Assembly: GCA_051362555.1 (NCBI GenBank)
Contig: CM120646.1
Span: forward strand, 1,612,001 to 1,676,000
From: Lingula anatina
Lineage: Eukaryota > Animalia > Brachiopoda
Length of the DNA: 64,000 bases
Reading direction: 5' to 3'
Shown: positions 3,601 through 39,956 of the stretch, piece after piece
Numbering within the stretch: the stretch's first letter is position 1
Layout: the number at the start of each line of letters is the position of its first letter
Notes under the pieces: generated by a model
Told to the model about the DNA's origin: nothing
Seen by the model: only the letters and a program-made list of their open reading frames with translations
Databases searched by the model: none
Translations under genes and position numbers: made by a program

Positions 3601-5877
3601 TGAAAATGATTAATTTGAGAACATATCTTCACATCATGAATACACCATGGAATATAAGGTGATTTTTCTCTGAAGAAAATGGACAGGTTAAAAAATAGTC
3701 ATTAGGTTAAGAGCGGGTGACTATATGACACTGCATAAAGAACAAACACTTTGAATGGATGGGATCTGTCAGACATTATCTTCTGAAATTCTCCTTTGAA
3801 AAAAAGGAAAATTATGATGATGAACATTTTCTGACACCTTTCATGAACTCATGTTACTTCAAGTAAAGTAGCAGATGTGCCTCGGTCCAGCAGTGACACA
3901 TGAAATAAATATAGTGGGGTATATAGTGTTTAACTTGAACCACCTGATCCGTGGGGTTTCCCTCTTCACACTATTACAGACATAATAGGTAAGTGAAGAG
4001 AGCAGTTCACAGACAGGTGATGGCATTGACCTACAGGGCGTCACAAAAATAAATAAAGAGATAAGATTAATTTCAGTTGGTTTTGGGGGGAGGGGTGGGT
4101 GATATGGTTTCCCCTCCCCTCTCTCTCTTTATTTTAAAACAAAGTTTCCATAATTTATGTTCAATGGGTGATTTGATTTTAAGAAGGAAATTGCACGAAG
4201 AAGAAGAGTGATTGCCTAGTTGGAAAAACATCAGTGTGGAACTTTGGATGAGTCCCTGTCATCTAAGTGGCTGTTTTAACAGTTACAGTATTCACTAATG
4301 GGATGAATTTGCAATTCATACCCATTAGCTATCTTTTTTATGCAGAGGATTTGGCCAGTTACTGTACAAATTACAGTTGTTTTTTGTTCCAGTACCTGTG
4401 CATACTTCCAACCCTGCATGTTATATTTTTCAAACAGTAAATGTACGAGCAACTTTGCTTAAACCAGTCCATCAAAACCTCTTTGAAATCACCTTAAAGA
4501 AAGGCAAATAGACTGGATAACACCATAATAATCAGACTGTCAAACTGATTACATAACCAATGAATACAGAAGACAGGTACTTGTCTAGACATTACAGGGA
4601 GAAATGAATATCTTGAGTATATATTTAGGAAAGTCAATTTTAATTACCCCCCTCCCCTCCATTCACTCTGTAATGGGCAAGATGACACTTTAACGACCCT
4701 ATTCACTGTCCACTACCCCTCTCTGTTACATCCTATGGGCCTGTGACTGGGCGCTTTTGGTCATTCCGACAGGTGTAATGTGTTAACTGTGGTCATCCAC
4801 GTCTGGACATTAACCCTATAGACACCCATTTAATGACTGTAATGACACGGTTAAATCACACCCATACCTAATACATGCATCGTCCTTTAAACATCTGAAA
4901 CATCACTACCGCGCTTCACAGCTTTTACTCCACATCCCTATTATTTATTTAAATTACTTTTAACTTTTGAATTAATTTCATGTCTGAATTTTCAGAATAA
5001 ACAGCAGTTTAGCCAAATTGTTGATATTTTTTACCCACTCTTTCAACAGTACCTTGACTGCTGCAGAGGGGCTGTCCGTGTGTGTAAATGGACCATTAAG
5101 TTGAGTTAATAGTGTAGTTAACCTGTGTTGTTTGGGGAGCTAGTTGATTGTTGACATACGTGAATCTCTTTTATGTCTACCGACCTAGGTAACTTACCAG
5201 TTTTTTATTTTTTAATTTTGATTTCTGGCTATAATTTGTTATGCTTAGTCACAGGGTATGGAAGAATTCAATTTTCTAAGATAAAAAAAGTGAAATTTAG
5301 AATAAAAAATAATACCTGTATATCCATAAATATAATTTGTATGAACCTCCAATTTCTGTTGAAACTCATTAAACTAAAATTTGAAAAAAAGAAATCCTTG
5401 GTCTATAAAACAAAAAGCTAAGTCTGAAGAAATGCGTGGCAAAAACATATGCTTACTTGGTAAAACCAACACAGTCTGGTAATAAACAAACTGGAGTATG
5501 GGAAGTCAGCAAGTACAACAGACTCTTAGTAAAGATTTATGTGTTGGTTAACACAGGTGAGTTATCTGTGGCTAACCGACATGGAGAAATTGTATGGGAA
5601 TTAACATTAATATGCTGAGTATGGTACAGGTTTCACTGCTGTGTAGACGGATTTGTGGGGAGCAAGCAAAAAGTAAGCTACTGCTGGGGATTGGGTCATC
5701 AACTTTTTAAAAATAAATTTTGGGGGAGAAGGGGAGGGGTTTATTTAATTAAAATATCTGAATGACAAAATTTTTGACAACACTCTTTAAGATTTATGAG
5801 ACTTGTTAAATTTTTTGAAGGGGAGGTAGTTGCATCAAATTATCTTTCCATCACAATACAACTGAGCCTATTTACAC

Positions 5878-6012
5878 CACCCTGAGCTTCAGAGCTAACT
5901 TGACACTAACCTTTTCACTGTAGCCTATCTCCATCGTGTCAAGTTACTTGACACGATGGAGATAGGCTACAGTGAAAAGGTTAGTGTCAAGTTAGCTCTG
6001 AAGCTCAGGGTG
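5878..6012. mobile_element. Fully palindromic 135-bp MITE with 8-bp TSD (hAT/P-like)
   Basis: 67-bp perfect arms CACCCTGAG...CTCAGGGTG around a 1-nt centre (5945); TSD ATTTACAC at 5870-5877 and 6013-6020. Confidence 0.9.
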
Positions 6013-9000
6013 ATTTACACCAGAGCAGTATAATAAAGAAAAAGCCTTCAATAGACTCTAGTAGATCCAACGTTTAAAATTACAAAATTCCACTTTCTTT
6101 TCATCTCACAGGTCCACTTTTATAATCTATTCACCTCGGCTAGTGTGTGCAAGCTGTTGGCTTTTAATGAGCCCAGGTGATATAAAATACTGCTTTATTC
6201 AGACCCTGTGTATTTTATATTTAAGCTTCTGTAAATATTCAACAGAAAGTATTATTGTATTGGGGTTGCTGAAAGGAGGTCCCTCTACTTTTTTAATCAC
6301 TGTGTACCACAGTAAACTGGCCTGGTAAACCAGCATAAAAATAGTTGTAACAGTAGTGCAGTTACAAAATGAGTATATGCTTTTGCAATTAGAAACAAGC
6401 ATGTTTTGTGTTTGGTAGCTTTTTATAAAAAACTGAGTCAGATATAATATTTATTACTAGTACAGATGTTTATTCTGTTTGCATCCTGGCAGTCTTAGCA
6501 CCTTTCACACGCCTTCTAACACTTCATATTTTAACGCTATTGCATGGATACAAATTAAATTGACAGCTAGCCCTTGTGGCACGCGTTTAATTTCTCCCTG
6601 GAGAAATAGAATTACATCACTCAAACATAGAAATTACAGGTAAATTCATAAAGGCAACTGAGGATTAGCATCCTTGGTGGTTTTATGAAAATTGCTAGCA
6701 AATTCCATCTCCTGAATGTAATATATGGTAATTACTAACAATTATCAAATTCCTCATTTTATAATATTTAACTTTTTCTGGATTTATCATTTCCAGACAC
6801 TTATATAAATGTACTTTCTATTGTGAATCAAACTCACTTTTTTCTTTAGAATCACCATGTTTAAATATACGTACAGAATACTCATTTGGAAAATAATTAT
6901 TTCATGGCAATCAAATTTATTGAATAATTACCATTTACTCACACTCTATGCCCCTAGTTTTTAGTCCCTAGACATGATCTCAAGTGCTTACATAGAACTT
7001 AGCTTACATCACTCTCATTGTTAATACAGCTAAAATGCTGCAGGCAGTGACAACTTGATTTAGAAGTGCTTCACAGGTAATTTTACATCATCATCATCAT
7101 CAAAGGTATGGCTTGCATAGCTGGCAGACAAGAATTTGGTATCATTTGATAAAGTAGAGCACTTTAAAAGGAACTTTATGATTCACCTACGTAAAAAAAA
7201 GTCATATATTTACTGAAATATTCATTCATTATGCACCAAGTAACTCCAAATAACAACCTAAAGCTAAATGAAAAGATCTTGTAATTGAAGTAAAAGAGCC
7301 CCAAACAAAAAGGTGACCCAGAGGGAAAATTTGTTACACAACTTGAAAGGAAACTACAGGTGAAGCAGTGTCATCTGAAAATTATGGGTTCGGCACGATG
7401 GGAAGCGGAGCATATATGTACATCATAGGTGACAGGGATAATGTCAACAAAATGTGTCACATAACATTAAGGGATATAAATCAGCGGAAGGAGCAGTCGG
7501 TACGGTTTTTATGCTGGCTTGGCATGCTAAGACAATGAAACGGGGCCGACACTTAATTTTGCACTCAGGGTCATTTTAAAGCGCAAACGAAAAAGCGGTG
7601 GGAGTGATTTTTAATTCACCATGAGTGACTGTGTTAGAAACTTGAAGGTAATTTCTTATCAAAATATCAAAAACTTTAAAATATCACGGAGTCCCAGAAT
7701 TTGTGACAAAGGAAATCTCATGTCAACCATGTCAGGACTGCCAATCCTTTATTTTAAGTTCATAATCTTTATTGTTTCCATGGGTTAATATCCTATGATT
7801 TTACTTGTTTTGATTTTTAAAAATGCTAATGGCCAAAAATGTGCCGTATTCTCCCATCTTTCTGTAGATTGCTTATGCCTAAATAAGAACATTGTCTTTC
7901 ACCTATAATTTCTTCCTTTTTTGAAAAAGAAGAAAGACTTTCATTATCAAGATAATAAGTAATATGCATGAGAAATATATCCATTAGGACATTGGACCAA
8001 AGTTTGACTAAATTGCCCAACTAAAGTATGGATACCAACCTGTCATTTAATAGTATGTGTCCATACCGTATCAGGATTGTTTTTAGTGACTAAAATGGTA
8101 ACATTTACCCTTATCATAATAAATATGTCATTCAGTGTGATGGTATGACATTTACTTCACTAATAAAGGACTGCCTTTATCAAGATTTAAAAGGAGAAAT
8201 GAAAAAGCTAATTTTTTGGGCAAATATGATTCAGACAGTTGAAATGCTGTTGTGTGGTTTATAGTTGGTTTGTTCTAATTCTTGTCAGAAGGTTGGCAAC
8301 AAAAGGCAATAATTTGTAGATCTATGGCACATGGTATTCTGATTGTTTTCATAACCTCAAAAATGTTTCTTTTTTTTTCTTTGGGGAGGGGGGGGCAGTG
8401 TCTTCTTGTTACTAAATAGGCTGTCAGATGCCACAAATTCTTGAGTTCCATGGACAAAATTCCAAAAGTCAATTTGAAGTTTGTTTTAGCCCATTTCTGA
8501 TTATGCATTTGCTCTCACTGAGAGGTGTACAAAAGTGAAAAATACCATGAATTTCTTAAGATGTAGCAGTCTTTAAGCCTGTCATTTATTTAAAACTTGG
8601 TTGTTATGCAACTATTTCACAAGAATTATCCATAGACTGATCAAGTACCAATCATGAATGTGCTACTATTAAAAAAAAAACGTGACAAAATAAGCCTTTT
8701 CTTGCCTCAAAACTCGAGTACATAATTGACGACTCCACAAACACAAGCAAACGTTCCTCTCAAAAGAAAGAACCCAAAAGTCAATCGAGGCTAAAATCTT
8801 AAAGACGGTGGAATTCTAACCAAGATAACGGTATCACGGTACACATAGAACACCCTAGCCCATGTCACATATTTGACTGTTTACACTGTTGCTTGCCCAA
8901 GACCTCGACCGTTTTATCAGTGTTTCTAGGTTTAAAAAGATGGGTCAATAATACAACAATGTTTAATATTAGATTTACATAATCTGGTATCAAAAAGTGG

Positions 9001-15603: not shown

Positions 15604-16218
15604 TGTAAAGGTCTCCCGCTTTTCTGCCACCAGTGTACGGTTCTCTTACTTCGCTGCCACCAACAAAACAAGGTCTCTGTTTTGTAAACTTTATTTCTAC
15701 GAATAACTCTCAACACAAATGTACATGTTTCTGTATCTTTTACTAAACACTGTCTCTATTCTTGCTGTACTGCTGTACTTCTAATTTAAACAACTGCAAC
15801 TCAGCTACAATAAACTAACTGGAACTATATTGCGAAACTGACTCAAACTAAGTTGTGAAACTAAGTCTGACACTATACTCTCACTGAGTACTGCCACTAT
15901 ACTCTACAGTAACTCTAACTGAACTCTAACTGAACAACACTGCGAAGAGCAGCTGTATTTATACATTTCAAAAGTGGACGGCCTTGAATGGTTCACTGCT
16001 ACTTTGACTGGCAGCCAGAGTAAAAGTGGACGGCCTTGAATGGTTGACCGCCAACCCCTCTACTGGACACCACAATCCCCTCTTTCGTAAACTGATACCA
16101 CTTACAAGCCATTCCAACTTAAGGTTCAAAGTTCAACACACACAAGAATGTAAACAAAAGGCTACAGCTTACTGCAGCAACTTTACCATGAATTTTAAGG
16201 CTATGTAAAATCGTTACA
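15604..16218 (-). repeat. 3' LTR (615 bp)
   Basis: Direct repeat of 22012-22626; preceded on minus by the PPT; AATAAA on minus at 15690-15695. Confidence 0.97.
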
Positions 16219-16230
16219 CTCTCCCCCCCT
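16219..16230 (-). other. Polypurine tract
   Basis: Minus strand AGGGGGGGAGAG directly abutting the 3' LTR. Confidence 0.93.
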
Positions 16231-16407
16231 AGGTCTGATCCCACCGGGGATCTGCCCAACTACTAAATCAGTTAAAACTAAAATTATTCTGAAACATTTA
16301 AGCAGTTAAAAATTCAGTCAGTTCATAAAGTTCATTCAATAGTTCAGTGTCACTTTGATTAAATAAAATTACTCTTAAGTTCAACATTGGGTTAATAATG
16401 ATAATCA

Positions 16408-16495
16408 TTTAAAGTTCATAGTCTGATTCATAATAATGTTCACTTTAAAGTTCAAAGTCTGATTAATAATAATGTTCATTTTTAAAGTTCATTGT
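16408..16495. repeat. 36-bp tandem repeat (about 2.4 copies) in the retrotransposon 3' UTR
   Basis: TTTAAAGTTCA(T/A)AGTCTGATT(C/A)ATAATAATGTTCA at 16408 and 16444, partial third copy. Confidence 0.85.
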
Positions 16496-16500
16496 CACAG

Positions 16501-19500
16501 TCAATCAGCAAATCTCTTGGGAGGTCTTCTTTTCCTTCGTGGTCTTCCCTCATTTCTCAAATTACTGTCAGGTTGGTTCTTGGGTACTTGCACTTGTTTA
16601 GATTGGCCACTCTGCTTCATTCTGTGTTTGATGGCACTTCCCTCATGTTTCAGTGGACTGCCTTCTACATAATTACCTTTATGTAAACATTTCTGCAAAC
16701 TGGACACCCAATCTGGAACTTGGTCACTTAAAAATGGCTTAAGACGGTCATGGTGCACGATCTTCATTTTACACTTAGGTTTGCCTTTCACTGCAAACAA
16801 CAAATCACTGTGCTTTTTGACAACAACATAAGGTCCTTGCCATTTATCACGTTTCAGCTTTGGGCTCAGTCCCACTGTTCTAGTGCTATCTAGTAAGTAC
16901 ACCAAGTCACCAACTTTATAGTTATTTTGCGAAATACGGGTGTCATGGTCTCTTTTCTGCCTTTGAAAGTCCTTTTTCAAATGCAATCTCACTATTTCAT
17001 GAATTCTAGTCATTTTCTCTTGCAACATTTTGACATACTCTGAAGGAGACGTCACAGATCGGTCTTCTGGTGGTTTTCCAAAGATCAGTTCTGTAGCTGT
17101 GTGAACTTCTCTGCCTAACATAAGCAAATTAGGGGAATAACCAGTGCTTTCATGTTTACAGCACCTGTATGCTGCAGTCAATAAAGGCAAATGAATGTCC
17201 CAATCCCGTTGGTCTTCTGACACGTAAGCTGATATCATGTCACATAACACAATATTGAATCTCTCCACCATTCCATTTCCTGAGGGATGATAGCTGGATG
17301 TTCGGGTTTTATTTATTTCTAATACTTGACATACTTGTTTGAATAACTGTGACTCATAGTTGCTACCTTGGTCTGAATGGAGATCAAGGGGTAGGCCAAA
17401 TCTAGAGAAAAACTCTGTCACTAGCTTGTGTGCTACAGTTTTAGCTGATATGTCAGGGATGGCATAGCACTCCACCCATTTGGAAAACTGGTCCATTGCT
17501 AAAAGAATATATTTATTGCCTCTTTCACTGACTGGAAAAGGTCCTAAGATGTCTGTTGCCACTCTGTCCATGGGAGCGCCTACAGCATATCTTATCAAAG
17601 GAGCCTTAGGTCTCGACCGTGGTCTTTTTCTCCCACCACAAATAGCACATCTTCTTATGTAATCTCTTACACTTTCTTTCATCTTGTACCAGTAGAAGTG
17701 TCTTTTCAACTTGCTCACTGTTTTCTTGACGCCAAGGTGACCTGACGTGACTTTGTCATGCACGCCATTCATCACCTCGTTCCTCATCTCTCTCGGAACC
17801 AATATCTGTAAAAAGGAACCTGTCTTATCTAAAGTTTCCCATCTTTTATATAAAATGCCCTCCTGCAGCACAAGTTGGTCCCAAAGCAACCATAACTGTC
17901 GTACTGCAGGACTTTCTGCGGCCACTTTATCTCTTTCTGGTCTCTGTGATGACTGTTCCTTCCAGTCCAGCACAGTCTTCAACTCAGGGTCTTTATGCTG
18001 CAAATTAAACAATTCATTCACAGTGTAACTGCCCAGCCACTCGGCTGGAAGTCTACCTCTGTCACTCTCAGATTCACTGAGATCTGTATCTTCATCACCA
18101 TGAGAAAAATCTTGATCCTTGAATGTCAAGTTTTCTCTAGGCAGCACTTCCTTTTTCTTGGAAACTCTCATCCTTCGAAGAGAAAGTGCTCTAACTTCCT
18201 TAAAGATACACCTGAATTTCATGGTCACCCAGCTCAGGATTGCAAAGAACAATGTCAGTAGGATGTAAAGGCCTGTCAATAAAACTGAACAAGCTGCTGT
18301 ATACACACGTTTTACTGGACATTTTCCTTGGTTTCCCGATGCTTGACCACTGACTCCATTGTCTGATTTTAGTTCTTTCTTTCGGTTTTCTGTCATTCTT
18401 CTTATAACTAACGGGACGACTTCTTCTTCCAGATATCTGGACCATTGTTCATGTTTCTTTTTACACTGTACGCAACCATCGCATGGCAAATTGCTCAAGA
18501 TGGACTCTCCATCGTAGCATGGACACTCATCTGGGTCGCATGGAAACCTTGATATTGCATCTGCGTTACCATGTCTAGCCCCTGCTCGGTGTTCTATTTT
18601 AAAATCATACTGTGATAGCACTTCCAGCCATCTGGCCATCTGATCATTGGGCTCCTTAAAGGACATAACCCATCGGAGGGCACTGTGATCGCTTCGTACC
18701 AAAAACTGTCTACCCAATAAATGGTGTCTGAATTGTTGAACAAAGGTAACAACGGCAAGCAGTTCTTTTCTAGTCACGCAGTAACGGCGTTGAGTTTTCG
18801 TCAATGACTTACTTGCATACGCGACTGGTTTCTCTATTTCTTTCTGGGTCTTCTCACACCACTGTAACTGAGATAAAACGGCACCAATGCCCGTGGCTGA
18901 AGCATCAGTGTCGAGAATATACAATCCTTCGTCTCTCGGATACGCCATTACCTCATTACCTGTAAGGGCACTTTTGAGTTCCTCAAATGCTGTCTGACAA
19001 GAGTCCGTCCAAGTAAACGCCTGGCCGGCCTGGAGCAGGTAATTAATTGGAGCAGCTCTTGTTGAAAATCCTCTAATAAATCTACGATAATATGAGCACA
19101 GTCCTAGAAAACTACGTACATCAGTCAGATTCCTGGGAACTGGCCATTTCTTTATACACTCTACCTTCTCAGGATCTGGTTTAACGCCATCTTGTGTCAC
19201 TACATGTCCCAAAAACTGAACTTCAGTCTGGAACAACCTGCATTTGCTTGGTTTCAGTTTTAGTCCTGCTTTCCCAAGACGATTAAAAACCTCGTCAAGT
19301 CTCTTATAGTGTTCTTCAAATGATTTACCAAACACAATAATGTCATCAAGGTAAATCAACACTGTCTGCCACTGCAAACCACGAAAAATCAGTTCCATAC
19401 ACCGTTCGAAGGTTGAAGGAGAATTAGAAAGACCAAAAGGCATAACATTATATTCGTATAACCCATTTCTGGTCACAAATGCAGTCTTTGGCTTATCTTC

Positions 19501-20865
19501 TTCTGCTACCTCGATTTGATAATACCCGCTCTGGCAATCAGCTATTGAGAAGAAAATTGAACCACCAAGAGAGTCTAAACAGTCATTTATTCGAGGAAGA
19601 GGGTAAGCATCTTTCACTGTTACATCATTTAAGTGTCTATAGTCAACACAGGGTCTTGTTGTTCCATCCTTTTTCTTGACATAAACTAGTGGAGCTGACC
19701 AAGGTGAGGTGGACTCTCTAATAACACCATTTTGGAGCTGTTCCTGAATTATTTTCTCTTCTTCCCCAGCAAACGCTCTAGGGGGTCTTCTGGGCTGCTG
19801 TTTTATGGGTCTTGCATCACCAGTGACAATCTTATGCTTTACGACAGATGTGTGACCCATGTCACTGGAAGACTTGGCAAAAACATCACTGTGCTTCTGC
19901 AGGAGTTTCTTTAATTCACATCTTTCAAAGTCAGTCAAATTCTCACCTGACTGTTTATAGAGGTCAGCCAGGCACTCAGGCAATTCTGGGCTATGAAGGG
20001 TTAAGGCTGACTTTTGTTTACCAGGGGTTAAGTCTGCTCGTAAGGTGGGCACAGAAAGGCTATCTTCAAGTTTATCACCAATCACATGGTCTACTTCATG
20101 TAAATGAGCAACGCAGGTGTCTTTCAAAAGTGAAATGTCTTCATTAGAAGGGTTAAGGAGTCTCACAGGTATTTTATTGTCTCTTGTGAAAGGATCAACT
20201 AGCACATGTCCGATCAGAAAATCACTTGACTTCTCTGGAATTGCCTCTACCAGTCCCAATCCTGATTTTATTTTGCTAGAATCAACTGTCCCTTCTATGA
20301 TCAACTCACTGTTTGCAGGAATAATAACGTCATTAGTCACTGTCACTCTAAAGGCATGCTTTGGTTCCCTCTCAACCAAACAGGGCACTCTCTTCCCATT
20401 AAGTTTCAGTCCGTTCACACCCAGTGAAAAATCATGATGGCACAGGAAGTCCATTCCTAACAAACCATCGTCCTTTATTTTTGCTACAAGCATGTCCCAA
20501 ATAAACACTTCTTCACCAGACTGAAATTTTATTTCTACATGGCCTTCAATTTCAATGTTTCTACTGTCTGCAACCTGCAACTGCAATTTTCTATGAGTCT
20601 TTTTCAGTTCAGGTCTAAAATCATGGGGAATTCGTTCATAAATGTGGGTAGCTATAATTGTTTTTGACGCACCAGTGTCTACAATAAAGTTCACTTCTTG
20701 GCCCTGAATCTTCACTGGCCAAGAAACACTAGCATTTCTACAACTAACGGTTTCAATGTCACTGTCAACAGGTGTTTTTAGGGGTTCATTCTGGCCGGCT
20801 GGAATGCCCCTTCTCAGTTTCCCTGGTTGTTTACATGCTGAGCCTCTTTCACAGGTGCCTTGCAT
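16501..20865 (-). CDS. pol: Pol polyprotein (aspartic protease, reverse transcriptase, RNase H, integrase), probably expressed as Gag-Pol by -1 frameshift near 20820
   Basis: Protease FIVDTGAS (DTG 20671-20679); RT motifs CVDYRHLN, YPLPRI, MPFGL, YLDD (19342-19353); RNase H TDAS/KELLA/SDH/ADAISR; integrase HHCC, TDILGP/SDQG/ERFN (DDE) and GPY motif; no stops. Confidence 0.97.
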   Translation of the reverse strand: MQGTCERGSACKQPGKLRRGIPAGQNEPLKTPVDSDIETVSCRNASVSWPVKIQGQEVNFIVDTGASKTIIATHIYERIPHDFRPELKKTHRKLQLQVADSRNIEIEGHVEIKFQSGEEVFIWDMLVAKIKDDGLLGMDFLCHHDFSLGVNGLKLNGKRVPCLVEREPKHAFRVTVTNDVIIPANSELIIEGTVDSSKIKSGLGLVEAIPEKSSDFLIGHVLVDPFTRDNKIPVRLLNPSNEDISLLKDTCVAHLHEVDHVIGDKLEDSLSVPTLRADLTPGKQKSALTLHSPELPECLADLYKQSGENLTDFERCELKKLLQKHSDVFAKSSSDMGHTSVVKHKIVTGDARPIKQQPRRPPRAFAGEEEKIIQEQLQNGVIRESTSPWSAPLVYVKKKDGTTRPCVDYRHLNDVTVKDAYPLPRINDCLDSLGGSIFFSIADCQSGYYQIEVAEEDKPKTAFVTRNGLYEYNVMPFGLSNSPSTFERCMELIFRGLQWQTVLIYLDDIIVFGKSFEEHYKRLDEVFNRLGKAGLKLKPSKCRLFQTEVQFLGHVVTQDGVKPDPEKVECIKKWPVPRNLTDVRSFLGLCSYYRRFIRGFSTRAAPINYLLQAGQAFTWTDSCQTAFEELKSALTGNEVMAYPRDEGLYILDTDASATGIGAVLSQLQWCEKTQKEIEKPVAYASKSLTKTQRRYCVTRKELLAVVTFVQQFRHHLLGRQFLVRSDHSALRWVMSFKEPNDQMARWLEVLSQYDFKIEHRAGARHGNADAISRFPCDPDECPCYDGESILSNLPCDGCVQCKKKHEQWSRYLEEEVVPLVIRRMTENRKKELKSDNGVSGQASGNQGKCPVKRVYTAACSVLLTGLYILLTLFFAILSWVTMKFRCIFKEVRALSLRRMRVSKKKEVLPRENLTFKDQDFSHGDEDTDLSESESDRGRLPAEWLGSYTVNELFNLQHKDPELKTVLDWKEQSSQRPERDKVAAESPAVRQLWLLWDQLVLQEGILYKRWETLDKTGSFLQILVPREMRNEVMNGVHDKVTSGHLGVKKTVSKLKRHFYWYKMKESVRDYIRRCAICGGRKRPRSRPKAPLIRYAVGAPMDRVATDILGPFPVSERGNKYILLAMDQFSKWVECYAIPDISAKTVAHKLVTEFFSRFGLPLDLHSDQGSNYESQLFKQVCQVLEINKTRTSSYHPSGNGMVERFNIVLCDMISAYVSEDQRDWDIHLPLLTAAYRCCKHESTGYSPNLLMLGREVHTATELIFGKPPEDRSVTSPSEYVKMLQEKMTRIHEIVRLHLKKDFQRQKRDHDTRISQNNYKVGDLVYLLDSTRTVGLSPKLKRDKWQGPYVVVKKHSDLLFAVKGKPKCKMKIVHHDRLKPFLSDQVPDWVSSLQKCLHKGNYVEGSPLKHEGSAIKHRMKQSGQSKQVQVPKNQPDSNLRNEGRPRRKRRPPKRFAD
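20781..20823 (-). promoter_or_regulatory. -1 programmed ribosomal frameshift signal
   Basis: Slippery heptamer G GGA AAC (20817-20823) in the gag frame just before the gag TGA; 6-nt spacer; hairpin GGGGCATTC-loop-GAATGAACCCC (20781-20810); pol is in the -1 frame. Confidence 0.88.
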
Positions 20866-21941
20866 TCTCTTGCCAGATGCCCATATCTATGGCACTTGAA
20901 ACACTCTACGTTGTTTTTCCAATTTTCTGACTTGGGTGGTGGAGGACTTTTCGTGTCTTTTGCTTTCTCTTTCATTATCAAGTCTTTAATTTCATCTAAC
21001 TTCTTGTCAAACTTCTTTTCAAGCTGGTGTAGCTGACTTTCTGTTACAACAGCCTCAGGATTTGCTGCCCTAACACTTGGTCTTTTCACTGCCTCTTCTC
21101 TTAGACTGTTATACATTTCAAGGGCCTCCCTTGCTTCGTCTAGATTTTTGGGCGTTTTCATGCCCACTGCCACGGCGGCTTGATGGTCTGGCAACCCTTT
21201 TATGAAATGGCGCAATGCAATGGCCTCACGTGTGGTGCAGTCAGCCGTCGGGTAACCTTTTAACACTAACTTTCTAATATCGGATATGTACTCTGGCAGT
21301 TTCTCTCTTGAACTAAGCTTTCTGTTTTCTAGCTCTGACAGATAGGAGCTTGTAGTGCGCTTTTCTTGAAATCGGTTTTGCAACGCCCTCTGTAGCAGAG
21401 GGTAGGAATTTACCACTTCTGCTGACAACTGCACAAAGGCGAAATCAGCAGCCTCACCACGCAGACTGTTACATAATCTAAACAGTTTTTCAGACTCACT
21501 CCATTCACAAGTCTGGCTTAGTGCTTTGAATGGCTCAATGAAACCCTCCCAGGATTCTTTTCCACTAAAGAGAGTCTGTCTGGGCAAAGGTATTTCAAAG
21601 TTACTACGGCCGTTAATTCTGTGAAATGGGGTAAGTGTAGGGATTATTGTTTCTGATATGCGTTCATTCTGGGCTCTGTGTTCTATTTCTGTCTCTTTCT
21701 GTCGCTCTAGGGCTCTGACTCTCTGTTCTGCAGCCTCAGCACGTGCCTCTAAGATGTCAGCATTCTCTTTAGCATTTCTTAGTAATCTTTCTTTTTCTGC
21801 CTCTGCTTCTTCTACAGCAACTTGTATTCTGTGAGTAGAATTTTCTTTTTCAGCTTCAAGAGCTCTGCAGGCTTCTTCTAACTGTTCCTCCAGGTTTCTC
21901 ACTTCCTCCTGGTCAGATCTGTTGTCCTTTTTAGGAGGCAT
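20814..21941 (-). CDS. gag: Gag (N-terminal coiled coil, capsid-like region, C-terminal CCHC zinc knuckle), 375 aa
   Basis: ATG 50 nt after the PBS; E/A/R-rich heptad-like N-terminus; CFKCHRYGHLAREC fits CX2CX4HX4C. Confidence 0.95.
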   Translation of the reverse strand: MPPKKDNRSDQEEVRNLEEQLEEACRALEAEKENSTHRIQVAVEEAEAEKERLLRNAKENADILEARAEAAEQRVRALERQKETEIEHRAQNERISETIIPTLTPFHRINGRSNFEIPLPRQTLFSGKESWEGFIEPFKALSQTCEWSESEKLFRLCNSLRGEAADFAFVQLSAEVVNSYPLLQRALQNRFQEKRTTSSYLSELENRKLSSREKLPEYISDIRKLVLKGYPTADCTTREAIALRHFIKGLPDHQAAVAVGMKTPKNLDEAREALEMYNSLREEAVKRPSVRAANPEAVVTESQLHQLEKKFDKKLDEIKDLIMKEKAKDTKSPPPPKSENWKNNVECFKCHRYGHLARECKAPVKEAQHVNNQGN

Positions 21942-21991
21942 TTTGAATTTCTTGATTTCTTGAGCTTTTCTCTTGGCGTGTTAAAGTCTGT

Positions 21992-22010
21992 ATCCCAGCG
22001 CTTGCCACCA
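21992..22010 (-). other. Primer binding site, tRNA-Leu type
   Basis: Minus strand TGGTGGCAAGCGCTGGGAT, 1 nt inside the 5' LTR. It is complementary to the eukaryotic tRNA-Leu(AAG/TAG) 3' end ...ATCCCACCGCTGCCACCA (recalled from memory) with one mismatch and one extra base. Confidence 0.85.
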
Positions 22011-22011
22011 G

Positions 22012-22626
22012 TGTAAAGGTCTCCCGCTTTTCTGCCACCAGTGTACGGTTCTCTTACTTCGCTGCCACCAACAAAACAAGGTCTCTGTTTTGTAAACTTT
22101 ATTTCTACGAATAACTCTCAACACAAATGTACATGTTTCTGTATCTTTTACTAAACACTGTCTCTATTCTTGCTGTACTGCTGTACTTCTAATTTAAACA
22201 ACTGCAACTCAGCTACAATAAACTAACTGGAACTATATTGCGAAACTGACTCAAACTAAGTTGTGAAACTAAGTCTGACACTATACTCTCACTGAGTACT
22301 GCCACTATACTCTACAGTAACTCTAACTGAACTCTAACTGAACAACACTGCGAAGAGCAGCTGTATTTATACATTTCAAAAGTGGACGGCCTTGAATGGT
22401 TCACTGCTACTTTGACTGGCAGCCAGAGTAAAAGTGGACGGCCTTGAATGGTTGACCGCCAACCCCTCTACTGGACACCACAATCCCCTCTTTCGTAAAC
22501 TGATACCACTTACAAGCCATTCCAACTTAAGGTTCAAAGTTCAACACACACAAGAATGTAAACAAAAGGCTACAGCTTACTGCAGCAACTTTACCATGAA
22601 TTTTAAGGCTATGTAAAATCGTTACA
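22012..22626 (-). repeat. 5' LTR (615 bp)
   Basis: No differences from 15604-16218 seen by eye (offset 6408); adjacent to the PBS; TATAAA on minus at 22366-22371. Confidence 0.97.
22366..22453 (-). promoter_or_regulatory. LTR U3 promoter: TATA box plus a duplicated 24-bp element
   Basis: TATAAA on minus at 22366-22371; plus-strand AAAAGTGGACGGCCTTGAATGGTT at 22378-22401 and 22430-22453 (also 15970-15993 and 16022-16045). Confidence 0.65.
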
Positions 22627-25296
22627 ATATTAAAGTATGTGCACAGCTACATATATCACATGCTGAGAGGAAATTAAATGTAATGCATGAGATTATGCAA
22701 TAGGATGAGCACCTGGATACAAGAAATTACCTGTTAATACACCTTGAAGGGTGATAGCAGTAAAAGAAGGCAACTCCTATCTAAACTTAATTTGTGTGAA
22801 TTTATTCTTCGGCATCTATTGACAGAAGTAACAGTAATTGAAGTTGACAGCAGCTTGGTGAAATTGCAACTCTGTGTGAATGACCTTAATGCCGTGATGA
22901 CACATAATCTAATAGATGAGTTACACATTGGAAAATATCATTTTATTGTTGATTGATTTAAAAACAATCTAAATACTGGTGTGTGGGACAAAATTTTTAG
23001 GCGAGAGTGAGGGGCTAACCATTTAGTCATAATAAAAAAATTATGACAAGGGGAGACTAATCCCCCCCCCCCCCCCCCCCCACATACACACACACACTTC
23101 TTGTGCTATGTACTTGAAAAAGATGGGATTTGTTTTGGGGTGAAAGACTAAGCTTTTCTAGCCCCCTCCCTCTCTGAACTCCCAGCTATTACACTATATG
23201 TGAAATGTGAAAATGCCTTACACTTTATGTATGATGGAAGACAAGATTAATGTAAAATGAATGTGCGGTACAATATAGTCCTTTACTTGTGAATAGCAAT
23301 AAAGACGTCAAGCTGTGAGGTGACTTAAAGTGATGTAACCAGATATTTCACCTGTCTTGTGCTGTTAAAGTTATGCTGGTATACAAGATTTATAAGCTGA
23401 TTAAATCCAGACTTTATGTGCACAGGGGGCCTCAAATGTCAATACACACTTCTATTTCAGTGTCAAAGACATACGGAAAAATGCATTTTTTTGTCAGAGT
23501 AAAGCAAGTTGTGATGGACATTCATTACATGAAAAAGACCTACACCATGATTAAGATATTAAATTAATTTGCTACATTAGAGGTTTTTATTGAGACCACA
23601 GAAGCTTGATTTGCAATGAGAAATCTGAAAAATGTTAATGTCTTTTTGTTAGGTCTATTGACATCAAAAATAAAATGGATTCAGTGTTCTAAATGAGTGA
23701 ACAAGCTGTAGTTGTTACAAGGAAAAGGAACTGCTCTTCCTGATAAAGATCTGGAATATTTTTCAGTTAAATTTCACCCCTTTACTTTTACTCTGTTGAG
23801 TTTGAAGACATTTTCCAATATCTTGCAGAAAAGTTTACAATTATCTCATATTTTGTTCAGACATATAATTCCTTAGTTTTTAATTTTGTTTTACCAAGCA
23901 TGCATAAGATATGTATTTTATTAATGTTATGTGTCCTTTTTAAACTCCTTTTACATGAAATATATCATACACACTGAGTAGAGGGATAATCTATCTTTAT
24001 CCACATATTTTATTCATGTAAACCGCAATATTTACTGACATATTTTAAGGATTTATTTTGTCAGTGTTTACAAAAAAAAAAAAAAAAAAAAATTACTGAC
24101 ATGAGCTACAGCTGTTTTGCAAGACTTAGCATTATTTATAGGAGTTCACTTCTAACAGAACTGTGTTTTGGGATCTAATGCCCATCAATTCCGAATGTAT
24201 GAATTATTCATCCATGTTGCATATTTTCTGCATTACCTCATGAATATAATTTTCACTTTAAAATTCCTAATTTCTGTAAGTCACATAATGTGAACTGTGA
24301 ATTGTACCACAGTGGGCACAAACTTTCTGAACACCCTGTAGAAATATGGCTGACTACCTGGATATATACATGTTCCAGTCCAGTGGTTGGGACATAGAAA
24401 TTATACCAGTATATACTGGTACTCGGGACTATACCCTCTGTACACAGATGTCAGGAAAGATGAATGCGAATGTCTTATTAATCCAAAAATGAATTATTTA
24501 TATATTTTGTTGTAAATTAGTCTTTATAATTACTGATCTTTTTTTAATTCATTTATTTATAGACAATGCAAATTTATTTTGGAATGTAATCAGTTTTAAG
24601 CTGAAGTTTATCTGATAAGATATGGACAAGATAACACATATATTTATACCTGAAACAATGTATTTAGTAACAAGATTTAAATAGCTAAATATTTGAAAGT
24701 ATATCATATTTGTAATAAATTTTTTTTTCGAAAATAAACAATAAGTTACATGTTCATTTATTTATTGTGCCTTTTCCTCCTGTCATTTTGATATTCACAT
24801 TAAATGCTATATCGTACTGAATGACCCCAACCATATAAATTATCACTCCTCATGGCTGTTATGTATAAATGGATTCCCTTGGGTTATATCTATTTCTCAC
24901 CAGCACCAGGTGCATGTGTGATACTTTTTTTTACTCTGATCAGATGTCATCCCAAGCATAACCATAATAAAGCTATAAAACATAACCTATATAATGTCAT
25001 AAAGGGATTCAGCTTTCCAGTTGACCTCTTCTGACTTGTGAATGCTTGGGAACAGGATTAAATGTTTAATTACTATGGTTGCCAATTTTGGTTCAATTTT
25101 CAAAGTTTATAAAAACGTAGTTTTTCTTGCTATTAACTATACAATCACACTTGAAATGGAAAAATAGGTGGGTAAAAATTCATAGAAATTAATTTGTGCA
25201 TATCAGTTGTTGGGTTTGGAAATGGTCTCTTTAAAATTAATCTATTGGATGCATTTTCTTGTATAGGACACACATGCAGTTTTTTTTTTAAACTTA

Positions 25297-25541
25297 GGCT
25301 TCGTTCACATGCAATGTCTATTTTCTATTTTCTATTTTCGGTATGTCTTATGATCACGGTCTGTGCACTGAATATCCCGCGGCGTAATTACTGGCAGCGC
25401 GAGACAGTTACTATAAGTTACTATAAGTAACTGGCTCGCGCTGCCAGTAATTACGCGGCGGGATATTCAGTGCACAGACCGTGATCATAAGACATACCGA
25501 AAATAGAAAATAGAAAATAGACATTGCATGTGAACGAAGCC
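25297..25541. mobile_element. PIF/Harbinger-type palindromic MITE (245 bp)
   Basis: 116-bp arms with 2 mismatches and a 13-nt loop; termini GGCTTCGTTCACA; TSD TTA at 25294-25296 and 25542-25544. Confidence 0.92.
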
Positions 25542-25960
25542 TTATTCTTCTTTGCATCAAAATGAACAAAGGGCAATATATTATTTATACATCAACAAAG
25601 TTCAAGTCTTGTTGTTTGCAGATCATGATATTTTTTCATTGCCCTTTTGATAGCCATACAGATGGACAGTCTTTCTATGTCTCATGCTGCAGAAAAATAA
25701 AATAGGCAAAAGCACTGCAGAATTACCTTTTGTTCTTACACCCAGTATCTTGAATGTACACTGTACTAACATTTTCATATTTCTATTTTTAAATTTTAAA
25801 GATTAATGCTTCATAATGATTCTTTTGTGGTTTTTGGTTTCAACTGATCTCTCTAACAATTAAATTTTAATGATGAGGAATTGTCTGTCAACAGACACTG
25901 ACCATGATAATTACATACAGTACATATCTGTTATGTGCAAGCAGAAATCAGACAGACTAG

Positions 25961-26165
25961 GGGTGGGTTCAGAACAAGTTGAGTCATGTACTAACATATC
26001 TGTAGATCAAATATGTCCTATTCACTTGAAAGCTTGCTGCATAATACCCTAATAGATACTGAATAGATTCCCTGCAGGGATTATGTGACAAGCTTTCAAG
26101 TGGGTCGGCCATATTTGATCAGTGGATCTGTTAGTCCCTGGAGCAACTGGTTGTGAATGTGACCC
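25961..26165. mobile_element. Old long-TIR MITE (Harbinger-like), family shared with 37164-37329
   Basis: About 90-bp degenerate inverted arms (GATCAAATATG..CACTTGAAAGCTTG / CAAGCTTTCAAGTG..CATATTTGATC); TAG flanks both ends. Confidence 0.7.
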
Positions 26166-29100
26166 TAGTCCCCAGTCAGGGTCAGACAGAGGTCACAATA
26201 CAGCAATTAATTATATCAATGATATCATCTCTCAGACAATATTGATATCATCTTATTGCCAGCCACAGCAGATGACCTCCTAGATCAGTACACCACGGTC
26301 AGCTGGTACGTGGACGCATTAAATGTTTTATGCATCCAAGGCGAGCACAGGCAGGAGAGAGGAACAGTCACTACATCCAGGTTACTATACTGACTTTAGG
26401 CATGGTCAGAGTTGGACATTATTATTTCATTTTGTTAGGAGGTAAATGGAACTTCTTTATGTATTTTATTTTATTTTATTGTATTATTATTATTATTATT
26501 ATTATTTTAGATAAATAGGACATTTAAATGTACTTAGAGAGGTTTTACAAGAAGATGGAGGATACATTTCTGAAGCATTTATTTGAGATGCATCTTAAAG
26601 TCCTTTTCACTATAAAGACAATATCTGACACTTTAATAATTTAATAATTAACTTAGTGTCAGTGATGGCCAGCTGCCTTAATGGGGATTGGATGTTGTCT
26701 GTGGGATATCTACTTTCCTCAAAGCAACATCAATCTTAAATATTCCACAGTACATTTATTCTGCAGGTATACATTATCCTGTTATTACCAGCCACTCTAG
26801 TATGTTCAAAGCACACTGGTTTTTGTTTCATAAAAAACACAAGTAATGATCCACAAATATTATATATTTATCATTATGACATATATTCCATAAAAATCAT
26901 CAGTTACAAATACATGTAATTTTAATATTTGACCTCTTTTTGAACTCATTAACTGAGACAAATAATCAATAATAAATGGGTGCCAGAACATCATCTGCAC
27001 CTTAGACTCAGTGCTTGTCAGCCTAAGAGATAACTCAAAAATTAATATACAGATATGAAAAACATCCAAAACATCCTCGTGCTATTATCGATTTTTGAAA
27101 CAGCGACTAAGATATGATGTATCTGAGATAATTCCAAAAAATTTTTTCATATAATTATTTATATTTTCAGATTAACTTTGTGAGATGCGAAAGAAGTTAA
27201 CTAATAAGAATGTAAGAGATTGGCACCAGGACAAAAATATTCAGATCTAGTAAACCAATTAACTTGCATCAATTTTGAAGGAATGTCTTATCAGCCAAAA
27301 GGGAGGTTTTCATCCTGCTTGTCCTATAAAATGACAGTGCTGTGACAGTTGACAGACACTGCCATTGATGGCCAGGTGGTAATCTGTGACAGGTGGGGTG
27401 ACAGACAGTATAAGGTGACAGGTAGATGTGTCAACAGGTGTATGTGCTATCATACTGGGTGTTATACTCTGTGCTTTATCATTCCTCTCTTACAGATTAT
27501 CATTTTAGCATTGACAGTGGGGTCTGCTAATTTTTTATCATTCCAAAAATAAAATAAACAAGTACAAAATAAGTAAAATGGGGGAGGGGGCACATTTGAA
27601 ATTTGCCTTTTTGTTTTTATCTCAGACTCTTTGAAGTTTCTCAATGGATTTTTTGCTGACGTGATGGTGGCAGGGGTTTGTTATAGAGTGACAAGGAAGA
27701 GCTGACAAATGGTTATCAGAACAAGTTTTTTTGCTGGTAAAAAGTTAACATTTCTAAAGATTCTATACATGTTTTTACCTAACAGGCATTGCATTTTGAC
27801 CTTTTTTTATCAAAGATATTTGTTCACTTGACTGATTTGTCTGTGTAACTCTGAAAAACCCTCTTTTGCTTACTTTTTTCTAAGAAATATCATATTTCAG
27901 CAGCCGAGAGAAAAACCCAGACTGCGTTTGTTAGTTATATAAAATGGTGCCGATAAATATTTTTAATTCATATAATTTTTTTCTGAATCATATACATACA
28001 TCTTGCAAAATTGGATCTGACATGATTAAAAGATATCTCTGTACAAAGGAAGAAAAAACGTGATTGTCAAATACATCAAAATTTTGTCCTAAATCCAAAC
28101 AAATGCCATGATGTGATTGCCCCCTCTTCTTATCCAAACTGAACCCTCCATTGTCCAAAATCAGTTACGTGACTTTTTAACCACTTGTGTCTGTGTAAGT
28201 CCCATTTTCCCATTTAGCATTGTTTGTTATACTTTATTATTTTACCAGTCAAATAATAATGCATTATTTACAGTGTACAGCTTTGTCTACAAGAGATGTG
28301 TGTGCTGATCAATTTCTTTTTTAAAAGGCCAAATTTACAAATGGAATCTTACTTTTAGAAAACAATTCACATTTTCTGAAAAGCAATATGAATTACGTTC
28401 ACATTAACTCCACAGTGAAGATTAGCTGTGGCAATATATATGAAACCCCCTGTACAACACAGACAAACTCATGTATTGTTTCATGTATATCCAGTCCTAA
28501 TTAATGCAGAAAACCTAAGAGAAAGAGACATATACAGTATGTACTGTATGTCTTCAACAAACTATTCAATAGCAAAGATCCAAAACTATTTTGATAACTT
28601 CACAGGGGGGAATTTATCTGCAGTTTGTGCCTGAATTCCTCCCCGATACCTATCCAATACAAACAGAGGTCCACTTATCACCCTTGTGTAGAAATTAATT
28701 ACTGCTAACTCTGCAATCAATTGTTTGCCTGGTTTCAGTGGTGTTTGAAGCTTAAGAGGAAACTGATGGTTGTCGTGGCAAGAGTGGGGAAGTTTGGAAT
28801 TTCGGGGCACTACTGTAACTGATACAAGGAGGTTGGATATTGTGGACAGGTTGCAAGGTGTTGCAGTTATCAGAAAAAGCAAACAAGGTTGCTCCAATGG
28901 GGACCTCAATATTAAAAAACATTCTGCTGTACCTGCTTTTGCTTTTAAATTTTCGTAATGCAATTTCCCTATTGTTGTGATCTTGTTTAAATTGCCCTTT
29001 AAATTATTTGGTGACTATCATTTAAATATTTAAAAGTGACAGTGAAAATTTTAAGCCATTTCAAGCCATTTGGTTTAATTGTCGTTGTAGTGTACAGTAT

Positions 29101-39827: not shown

Positions 39828-39956
39828 TCATATTATTGAAATATAAATATCATACATGTACAACATACTCAGTCATGGTTTCTGAGAGCGTCACGCTCTC
39901 AGAAACCATGACTGAGTATGTTGTACATGTATGATATTTATATTTCAATAATATGA
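39828..39956. repeat. Perfect 129-bp palindrome
   Basis: 64-bp perfect arms around a single C at 39892; no TSD found. Confidence 0.93.

What the first reader, a model, noticed from the sequence alone, without database searches (positions are those of the whole stretch)
18020..18400. Predicted transmembrane helix and polybasic tail embedded in Pol, between RNase H and integrase, in an env-less Gypsy element
Seen: in the open pol frame after RNase H there is a 27-aa uncharged hydrophobic stretch VYTAACSVLLTGLYILLTLFFAILSWV (18226-18306). It has nearby cysteines and is followed by basic KFRCIFKEVRALSLRRMRVSKKK and an acidic linker (DEDTDLSESESD) before integrase. An in-frame Met with A at -3 lies upstream at 18396. 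Established: Ty3/Gypsy Pol is normally soluble and membrane functions belong to a separate env ORF; a TM helix with juxtamembrane Cys and a polybasic stretch is the layout of small viral membrane proteins such as reovirus FAST proteins. Inference: this young intact element may release a small membrane peptide by protease cleavage, or make a membrane-anchored integrase from an internal start or spliced RNA. That could anchor assembly to membranes or allow spread without Env.
Basis: partly seen in the sequence, partly recalled or inferred. Interest (0 to 1): 0.82.

Follow-up and report, generated by a model that had tools for sequence, protein, structure and literature searches.

The report
Membrane helix hidden inside retrotransposon Pol
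One lineage of envelope-less jumping genes carries a fast-evolving, strongly water-repelling helix in the middle of its enzyme polyprotein; the helix is predicted to bind membranes and is likely cut out by the element's own protease as a small peptide, which would give these elements a membrane tool not found described in the papers searched.

Summary
An intact minus-strand Ty3/Gypsy element (15604-22626, identical 615-nt LTRs, no env) has a hydrophobic stretch at Pol 861-887 (hydropathy 2.41; next best in Pol 0.99). It is a lineage trait. In an RT-RNase H tree that leaves the linker out, 29 of 30 members of one clade (SH-aLRT 100) have it and 0 of 49 outside do. Its sequence changes fast (48% identity vs 89% in RT-RH) while hydrophobicity stays. 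The RT/IN junction motif of helix-less relatives recurs after the helix (9 of 26 at p<0.05), suggesting a peptide of about 50-120 aa cut at both ends. One nested family lost exactly that module; one element carries three helices. No splice signal was found. FAST hallmarks (own ORF, myristoylation, one-sided polybasic patch) fail. Best reading (0.45): a protease-excised membrane anchor of Gag-Pol, working like potyvirus 6K2. Membrane binding, cleavage and function are all untested. A role in env-independent spread stays open (0.2).

The parts
22012..22626 (-). 5' LTR (615 nt)
   Evidence: identical to the 3' LTR; TG...CA ends; TSD ATAT
21988..22011 (-). primer-binding-site-like sequence starting TGG next to the 5' LTR
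   Evidence: sequence; priming tRNA not identified
20814..21980 (-). gag (ATG at 21941; PNMA-like capsid, CCHC knuckle)
   Evidence: weak Pfam matches below the curated cut-offs
20817..20823 (-). GGGAAAC slippery heptamer just before the gag stop, followed by a hairpin; predicted -1 frameshift into pol
   Evidence: hairpin -10.7 kcal/mol; frameshifting is inferred
16501..20886 (-). pol: protease, RT, RNase H, linker with hydrophobic helix, integrase
18451..18540 (-). Cys-rich motif after RNase H (Pol 783-812); its C[DNE]PxxCxC form marks the clade
   Evidence: 25 of 32 clade members, 0 of 89 others; Cys/His columns nearly invariant
18388..18405 (-). first junction motif (Pol 828-833), at the place of the [VI]-R-x-[VLI] RT/IN junction of helix-less relatives; putative protease site; holds the polymorphic Met831
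   Evidence: cleavage is inferred
18226..18306 (-). hydrophobic helix (Pol 861-887)
18163..18225 (-). basic continuation of the helix (Pol 888-908)
18178..18195 (-). second junction motif (Pol 898-903, VRALSL), the best match to the junction profile in the whole Pol; putative protease site
   Evidence: score 9.7, p=0.003 against shuffles of the downstream linker
18061..18096 (-). acidic, predicted disordered linker before the integrase N-terminal region
16219..16232 (-). polypurine tract
   Evidence: sequence
15604..16218 (-). 3' LTR (615 nt)

Best explanation
A clade of env-less Ty3/Gypsy elements carries a hydrophobic helix between two copies of the RT/integrase junction motif in Pol; it likely binds membranes, likely tethers the Gag-Pol precursor to the cytosolic face of a membrane, and would be cut out by the element's protease as a peptide of about 50-120 residues at maturation. 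Shown here: the helix, its clade-wide retention under fast sequence change, the repeated motif, and loss and triplication as a unit. Inferred: -1 frameshift to Gag-Pol; binding with both flanks cytosolic (in-plane or hairpin), because a plain single span would put either RT or integrase in the ER lumen; concentration of the scarce Gag-Pol at a membrane where particles assemble; two cuts that free soluble RT-RH and integrase. It works like potyvirus 6K2 or picornavirus 3A: a membrane peptide embedded between replication enzymes of a polyprotein. It is an accessory, since one family multiplied without it.
For: (1) RT-RH tree, linker excluded, 79 of 87 candidates long enough: a clade with SH-aLRT 100 holds 30 rows, 29 with the helix; 0 of 49 outside have it; 2 changes vs 23.8 for shuffled labels. 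A flank-only tree of 103 rows gives 25 of 26. (2) Of 31 clade segments, median hydropathy is 2.1, 28 reach 1.6, and 30 exceed every other window of their own protein; 9 of 11 long non-clade linkers stay under 0.9, so length is not the cause. (3) Of 20 loci fetched by the Cys-motif DNA pattern alone, all 10 with an open frame into integrase have it (1.57-2.52); 5 of these 10 repeat proteins already held. (4) T is enriched at codon position 2 (0.61 vs 0.28 in integrase), not at position 3 (0.27 vs 0.29), so it is not a T-rich DNA tract (window alone). (5) In five related families identity is 48% in the helix vs 89% in RT-RH and 80% in integrase; dN/dS is about 0.47; the helix core is gap-free. 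(6) A profile trained on 70 helix-less junctions finds a second copy after the helix: 13 of 36 at p<0.05 and 9 of 26 after removing near kin, vs 2 of 23 before the helix and 0 of 26 in the integrase N-terminus. (7) The helix-less family (P0012 plus 7 of 7 scorable members) has the two motifs abutting, as if the module were removed as a unit; all 48 scorable members of nine other families keep it. L083 has three helices in tandem. (8) K/R lies within 10 residues before the helix in 27 of 36 and after it in 32 of 36; Cys is 4.6% vs 2.4-2.7% in RT-RH and integrase. (9) AlphaFold2 predicts long helices: 48 aa here and 42 aa in L003.
Against: No TM predictor or experiment was run. Some members are weak: hydropathy 1.4-1.7, uncharged runs of only 12-14 residues, and 7 of 31 not beyond their own shuffles at p<0.05. 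Both AlphaFold models show a straight helix, not a hairpin. The motif is a protease site only by position; 17 of 26 second sites do not pass p<0.05, the first site in this copy scores low (2.8), and 4 of 27 long helix-less linkers also hold a second motif. A multi-copy family lacks the helix. One contig in run X10 skips 18044-18292 in frame (1 contig, 23 letters on the short side). Two rows outside the clade have a hydrophobic linker (P0127 2.19, P0053 1.31), so one origin is not certain. The dN/dS rests on 41 codons at near-saturated distances.
Confidence: 0.45

Rival explanations
1. The excised peptide is a membrane-active entry or spread factor that stands in for Env: either a lytic peptide stored in the particle and released on uptake, as in non-enveloped viruses, or a FAST/sORF2-like fusogen.
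For: No env in this element or in six relatives with downstream ORFs (five match C2H2 zinc-finger families; L082 not scanned). Fast evolution and dispensability in a family that still multiplied fit an accessory for spread. The helix starts a median 30 residues after the VVP anchor, close to the roughly 30-residue ectodomain reported for sORF2/FAST proteins (10.1101/2025.03.14.642691, passages). An amphipathic moment after the helix beats the shuffle mean in 24 of 35.
Against: No separate ORF; 0 of 36 with MGxxxS/T and 5 of 36 with any GxxxS/T near the first site; no consistent charge asymmetry. From general knowledge, Pol is made at a small fraction of Gag and is processed inside the particle, so little peptide would reach the plasma membrane. 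That argues against a FAST-type fusogen more than against a lytic peptide.
Confidence: 0.2
2. Only one site is cut, so the helix stays on a mature enzyme: an N-terminal anchor on integrase or a C-terminal anchor on RT-RNase H.
For: Many members have only one strong motif; in this copy the second site is strong and the first weak, which would leave the helix on RT-RH. Basic residues lie on both flanks.
Against: The motif occurs on both sides across the clade; the internal Met is polymorphic; a membrane-bound integrase must still reach chromatin (inference).
Confidence: 0.15
3. The helix is not a membrane anchor but an exposed hydrophobic signal, or a protein-binding helix, that sends part of Gag-Pol to quality control and so limits Pol dose, or that packs Pol precursors together.
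For: Weak, charge-interrupted helices in some members; free sequence drift fits a generic hydrophobic signal.
Against: 22 of 31 reach hydropathy 1.9 or more; Cys enrichment and basic flanks are typical of membrane segments; Foldseek found no soluble fold match at E<=0.001.
Confidence: 0.15
4. A neutral, hypervariable linker that is hydrophobic by chance or by base composition.
For: Length and sequence vary widely (76-301 aa); one family lacks it.
Against: 29 of 30 vs 0 of 49 on the tree; enrichment only at codon position 2; retention across Pols only about 50% identical.
Confidence: 0.05

Closest known systems
Ty3/Gypsy (Metaviridae) LTR retrotransposons of marine invertebrates
   Same: LTR-gag-pol-LTR, PR-RT-RH-IN order, predicted -1 frameshift, and a Cys-rich motif after RNase H shared with many helix-less relatives.
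   Different: A hydrophobic helix inside Pol. Term searches in the mollusc (PMC6238403) and polychaete (PMC8556966) clade surveys gave 0 hits for 'transmembrane' or 'hydrophobic' in the main text. The section on the RH-IN 'bridge' in PMC13524379 lists only RNase-H-like and mini domains. I could not assign a named clade (MolGy etc.) because no reference sequences were at hand.
sORF2 of MDG1/412-group retrotransposons and reovirus FAST proteins (10.1101/2025.03.14.642691)
   Same: A small hydrophobic-helix product in an env-less Gypsy element; a short N-terminal part; basic residues after the helix in about half of members.
   Different: sORF2 is a separate ORF of about 70 aa, mostly with a myristoylation motif and a juxtamembrane polybasic patch (passages and section 8 read). 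Here the segment is in frame inside Pol, has no MGxxxS/T, and has basic residues on both sides.
Potyvirus 6K2 (PMC7595835, passages); picornavirus 3A (recalled)
   Same: A hydrophobic peptide (6K2: 53-54 aa, 19-residue TM) cut from between replication proteins of a polyprotein by a viral protease; it remodels membranes and its vesicles carry genomes between cells.
   Different: RNA viruses; no homology is claimed; GxxxG was not tested here. The resemblance is one of design only.
Membrane-lytic peptides of non-enveloped viruses (nodavirus gamma peptide, birnavirus pep46, astrovirus)
   Same: A peptide released by maturation cleavage and able to act on membranes (search listing only; the rest recalled).
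   Different: Those come from capsid precursors at high copy number; this one lies in Pol.
TM-bearing ORF3 proteins of bdelloid LTR retrotransposons (PMC5408684, passages)
   Same: Small TM products proposed to stand in for Env.
   Different: Separate ORF3s downstream of pol, 220 aa or longer.

Membership tests
Ty3/Gypsy LTR retrotransposon | LTRs with TSD, PBS and PPT; gag; pol in the order PR-RT-RH-IN | tested here: met
Errantivirus-type (env-carrying) Gypsy | env ORF between pol and the 3' LTR | tested here: not met
   about 280 nt of space, longest sense ORF 37 aa
FAST / sORF2 | separate small ORF with its own start | tested here: not met
   in frame in Pol; Met polymorphic; Met before the helix in 15 of 36
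FAST / sORF2 | single hydrophobic TM-length helix | tested here: met
   by hydropathy and AlphaFold only; no TM predictor run
FAST / sORF2 | N-myristoylation motif MGxxxS/T | tested here: not met
   0 of 36; GxxxS/T near the first site in 5 of 36. Two of six sORF2 proteins also lack it
FAST / sORF2 | 3 or more K/R within 15 residues after the TM | tested here: inconclusive
   met in this copy (4); 15 of 31 in the clade
FAST / sORF2 | N-out/C-in topology | tested here: inconclusive
   net charge higher after the helix in 16, lower in 10, equal in 5 of 31
FAST / sORF2 | cell-cell fusion activity | not testable with these tools
   needs expression in cells
6K2/3A-like polyprotein membrane peptide (works like; no homology) | hydrophobic segment between replication enzymes | tested here: met
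6K2/3A-like polyprotein membrane peptide (works like; no homology) | flanked by sites cut by the element's own protease | tested here: inconclusive
   motif repeated above chance; cleavage untested
6K2/3A-like polyprotein membrane peptide (works like; no homology) | membrane association of precursor and peptide | not testable with these tools
   needs fractionation or imaging

The most novel reading that the evidence does not exclude
This Gypsy clade hides its Env substitute inside Pol: the protease releases a membrane-active peptide from between RT and integrase, and the peptide lets naked particles cross membranes and move between cells or hosts. Families that lose it become purely intracellular.
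Probability: 0.2. Interest if true: 0.92.

Novelty: new variant of a known kind. Interest (0 to 1): 0.74.

Why it matters
Retroelement Pol is treated as soluble, and membrane functions are sought in separate env or small ORFs; the published screen for sORF2/FAST-like genes looked for ORFs of 60-210 aa and could not see a segment inside Pol. A clade-wide, gained-lost-triplicated membrane module at the RT/integrase junction adds a third place where retrotransposons can encode membrane functions. It also gives a small, directly testable peptide for the open question of how env-less elements reach membranes and move between cells or species in marine invertebrates.

Tried and rejected
No host genome is held. 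RNA: no RNA holder was listed. Four RNA runs of the same species label gave only 33, 31, 56 and 35 reads on the element, no joints, and no depth at 18117-18363: too thin to bear on splicing or expression. The four-copy complex of the helix gave 'no answer' (score 0.01). Foldseek against PDB found nothing at E<=0.001. The ESM Atlas gave no hit at 0.9 or above. Viral contigs held no relatives. Five look-ups of earlier scan findings were empty. The careful tree did not finish, so the quick tree was used; 13 of 116 rows were dropped for short flanks; no AU test was run. One search is also a quick tree (LG+G4). Rejected: T-rich DNA artefact; internal Met start; splice acceptor upstream of the helix; the 249-nt skip in X10 as an intron (DNA run, no GT-AG in any register by my reading, 4-nt microhomology); an overlapping 81-aa sense ORF at 18200-18445, which is hydrophilic by inspection. 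Literature: ten searches, of which some were aimed at a TM segment in Gypsy Pol; none listed such a paper. The library lacks most subscription journals and Repbase Reports. I read no supplements, and they could hold such an annotation.

Full report
The element. The finding lies in a complete Ty3/Gypsy LTR retrotransposon on the minus strand, 15604-22626. The LTRs are 615 nt and identical, with TSD ATAT. gag (20814-21980) overlaps pol (16501-20886, 1461 aa) in the -1 frame, with GGGAAAC and a hairpin at the gag stop. Pfam finds protease, RT, RNase H (to residue 760) and integrase (from 1030). There is no room for env. The family is multi-copy in its host: DNA contigs of four runs cover the insert at depths of the same order as its flanks. 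Many close relatives sit on contigs filed in symbiont MAGs titled Ca. Thiodiazotropha or Sedimenticola; I infer these are animal, probably bivalve, host DNA.

The observation. Pol 861-887 (18306-18226) is as described. Its 19-residue hydropathy is 2.41 and the next best in Pol is 0.99; 0 of 500 shuffles of the insert reach it. AlphaFold2 with 28 sequences predicts one helix from 861 to 908, flanked by low-confidence linkers. No TM predictor was available.

Conservation. A search with Pol 740-1040 gave 21 relatives, and a HMMER search of 1.84 billion representatives listed 150. Of 171 proteins, 116 had both anchors (the Cys motif and the integrase N-terminal region); most have short hydrophilic linkers, and a minority have long ones with a hydrophobic stretch. 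A tree built from the flanks only (103 rows; 13 dropped for short flanks; quick method) put 25 of the 27 hydrophobic ones in one clade of 26 (SH-aLRT 96); the other two (P0127, P0053) lie outside. An RT-RNase H tree (79 of 87 candidates) gave a clade of 30 with SH-aLRT 100, 29 with the helix and P0012 nested without it, and none among the 49 outside. P0127 and P0053 were too short for that tree. Among 31 clade segments the median hydropathy is 2.1, 28 reach 1.6 and 30 exceed the rest of their protein; 7 are not beyond their own shuffles at p<0.05, and some uncharged runs are only 12-14 residues. As a sample chosen without regard to hydropathy, I fetched 20 loci by a DNA pattern for the Cys motif. 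All 10 with an open frame into integrase have the segment (5 repeat proteins already held). Of the other 10, five show it before a contig end or a stop, four stop too early to tell, and one (L075) stops after 34 non-hydrophobic residues. In 17 segments with DNA, T is 0.31/0.61/0.27 at the three codon positions vs 0.21/0.28/0.29 in integrase, so the signal is at the protein level. In five related families the helix is 48% identical vs 89% (RT-RH), 80% (Cys motif) and 80% (integrase), with dN/dS near 0.47 on 41 codons: the property is kept, not the sequence.

A bounded module. Helix-less relatives have [VI]-R-x-[VLI] just after the VVP anchor, which by position I infer to be the RT/integrase cleavage site. 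A profile trained on 70 of these finds a second copy after the helix in the clade: 27 of 36 above the shuffle mean and 13 at p<0.05; 9 of 26 after removing near kin (and L083), vs 2 of 23 before the helix, 0 of 26 in the integrase N-terminus and 4 of 27 in long helix-less linkers. In this Pol the best match of all is residues 898-903, right after the helix. The spans between the sites are mostly 50-120 aa, about 70 here. The P0012 family (7 of 7 further scorable members) lacks the helix and has the two motifs abutting, while 48 of 48 scorable members of nine other families keep it; 27 of the 82 listed members lacked an anchor and were not scored. L083 has three helices in tandem. So the module was gained (once, on the RT tree), lost once and multiplied once.

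The Met at 18396 is not fixed. Contigs with GTG make up 413 of 1096 (X3), 756 of 862 (X4), 61 of 61 (X10) and 0 of 340 (X1) in word depth, and the -3 A changes at the same depths; these depths are not copy numbers. Only 15 of 36 relatives have a Met before the helix, and none has MGxxxS/T. No pyrimidine-rich acceptor precedes the helix. The FAST/sORF2 comparison (10.1101/2025.03.14.642691; passages and section 8 read) is met for the helix and roughly for the length of the N-terminal part (median 30), not met for a separate ORF or myristoylation, and mixed for the polybasic patch (15 of 31) and charge asymmetry (16 higher after, 10 lower, 5 equal). Basic residues flank both sides (27 and 32 of 36).

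Mechanism. From established cell biology, a single span inserted in the middle of Gag-Pol would leave RT or integrase in the ER lumen. I therefore infer binding with both flanks cytosolic, or insertion only after cleavage. The most economical model is a membrane tether of the precursor, removed by two protease cuts at maturation; potyvirus 6K2 is built this way (PMC7595835, passages). I give it 0.45. An entry or spread peptide gets 0.2, a helix left on one mature enzyme 0.15, a non-membrane hydrophobic signal 0.15, and neutrality 0.05. Against the tether model: both AlphaFold models are straight helices rather than hairpins; some members are weak; cleavage is untested; a family multiplied without the helix; and one weakly supported contig in X10 deletes it in frame.

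Novelty. Six targeted full-text searches listed no paper on a TM segment in Gypsy Pol. I read section 7 and passages of PMC13524379 on the RH-IN bridge, term passages of PMC6238403, PMC8556966, PMC8220671 and PMC5408684, and no supplements; none of what I saw mentions it. The library is incomplete, so this is 'not found', not 'unpublished'. The element is an ordinary Ty3/Gypsy member; the Pol architecture is a new variant. Verdict: real, clade-wide and unexpected, with function untested. Interest 0.74.

Noticed in passing
L002:5306-6055, L007:2834-3586, L068:6235-7161, L069:2371-3594(-), L083:7645-8031: Several helix-bearing relatives have a third ORF after pol that begins with C2H2 zinc fingers (some matches weak). 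It is not env. The window's element has none.
   Followed up: partly
L083: The RH-IN insert is 301 aa and holds three hydrophobic helices in tandem.
   Followed up: partly
window 18451-18540 (-): A Cys/His motif (CxxxxCxC...LPCxGCxxC..H) follows RNase H in a broad Gypsy group, including helix-less elements; it has no Pfam match and may bind zinc.
   Followed up: partly
window 22012-22075 and 15604-15667: The U5 end of the LTR holds two short repeats (CTGCCACCA on +) that resemble the adjacent primer-binding site.
   Followed up: no
window 15980-16040 and 22388-22448: A direct repeat of about 26 nt lies inside each LTR.
   Followed up: no
L007 and L069: A gag (in L007 also the start of a pol) follows downstream of pol and ORF3, suggesting tandem copies or collapsed assemblies.
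   Followed up: no
L001-L064: Many contigs filed in bacterial MAGs (Sedimenticola, Ca. Thiodiazotropha and others) are animal-type Gypsy elements, most likely host DNA binned with symbionts.
   Followed up: no
window 21370-21590: RNA reads from a diverged gag fragment, with a shared loose end at 21587 in two runs, point to a transcribed degenerate copy elsewhere.
   Followed up: no
window 5873-6017, 25296-25542, 25955-26170, 39828-39956: Long near-perfect inverted repeats (palindromes or MITE-like elements) outside the element.
   Followed up: no
window 18346-18351: An in-frame 6-nt insertion polymorphism among sister copies, in the spacer before the helix.
   Followed up: no
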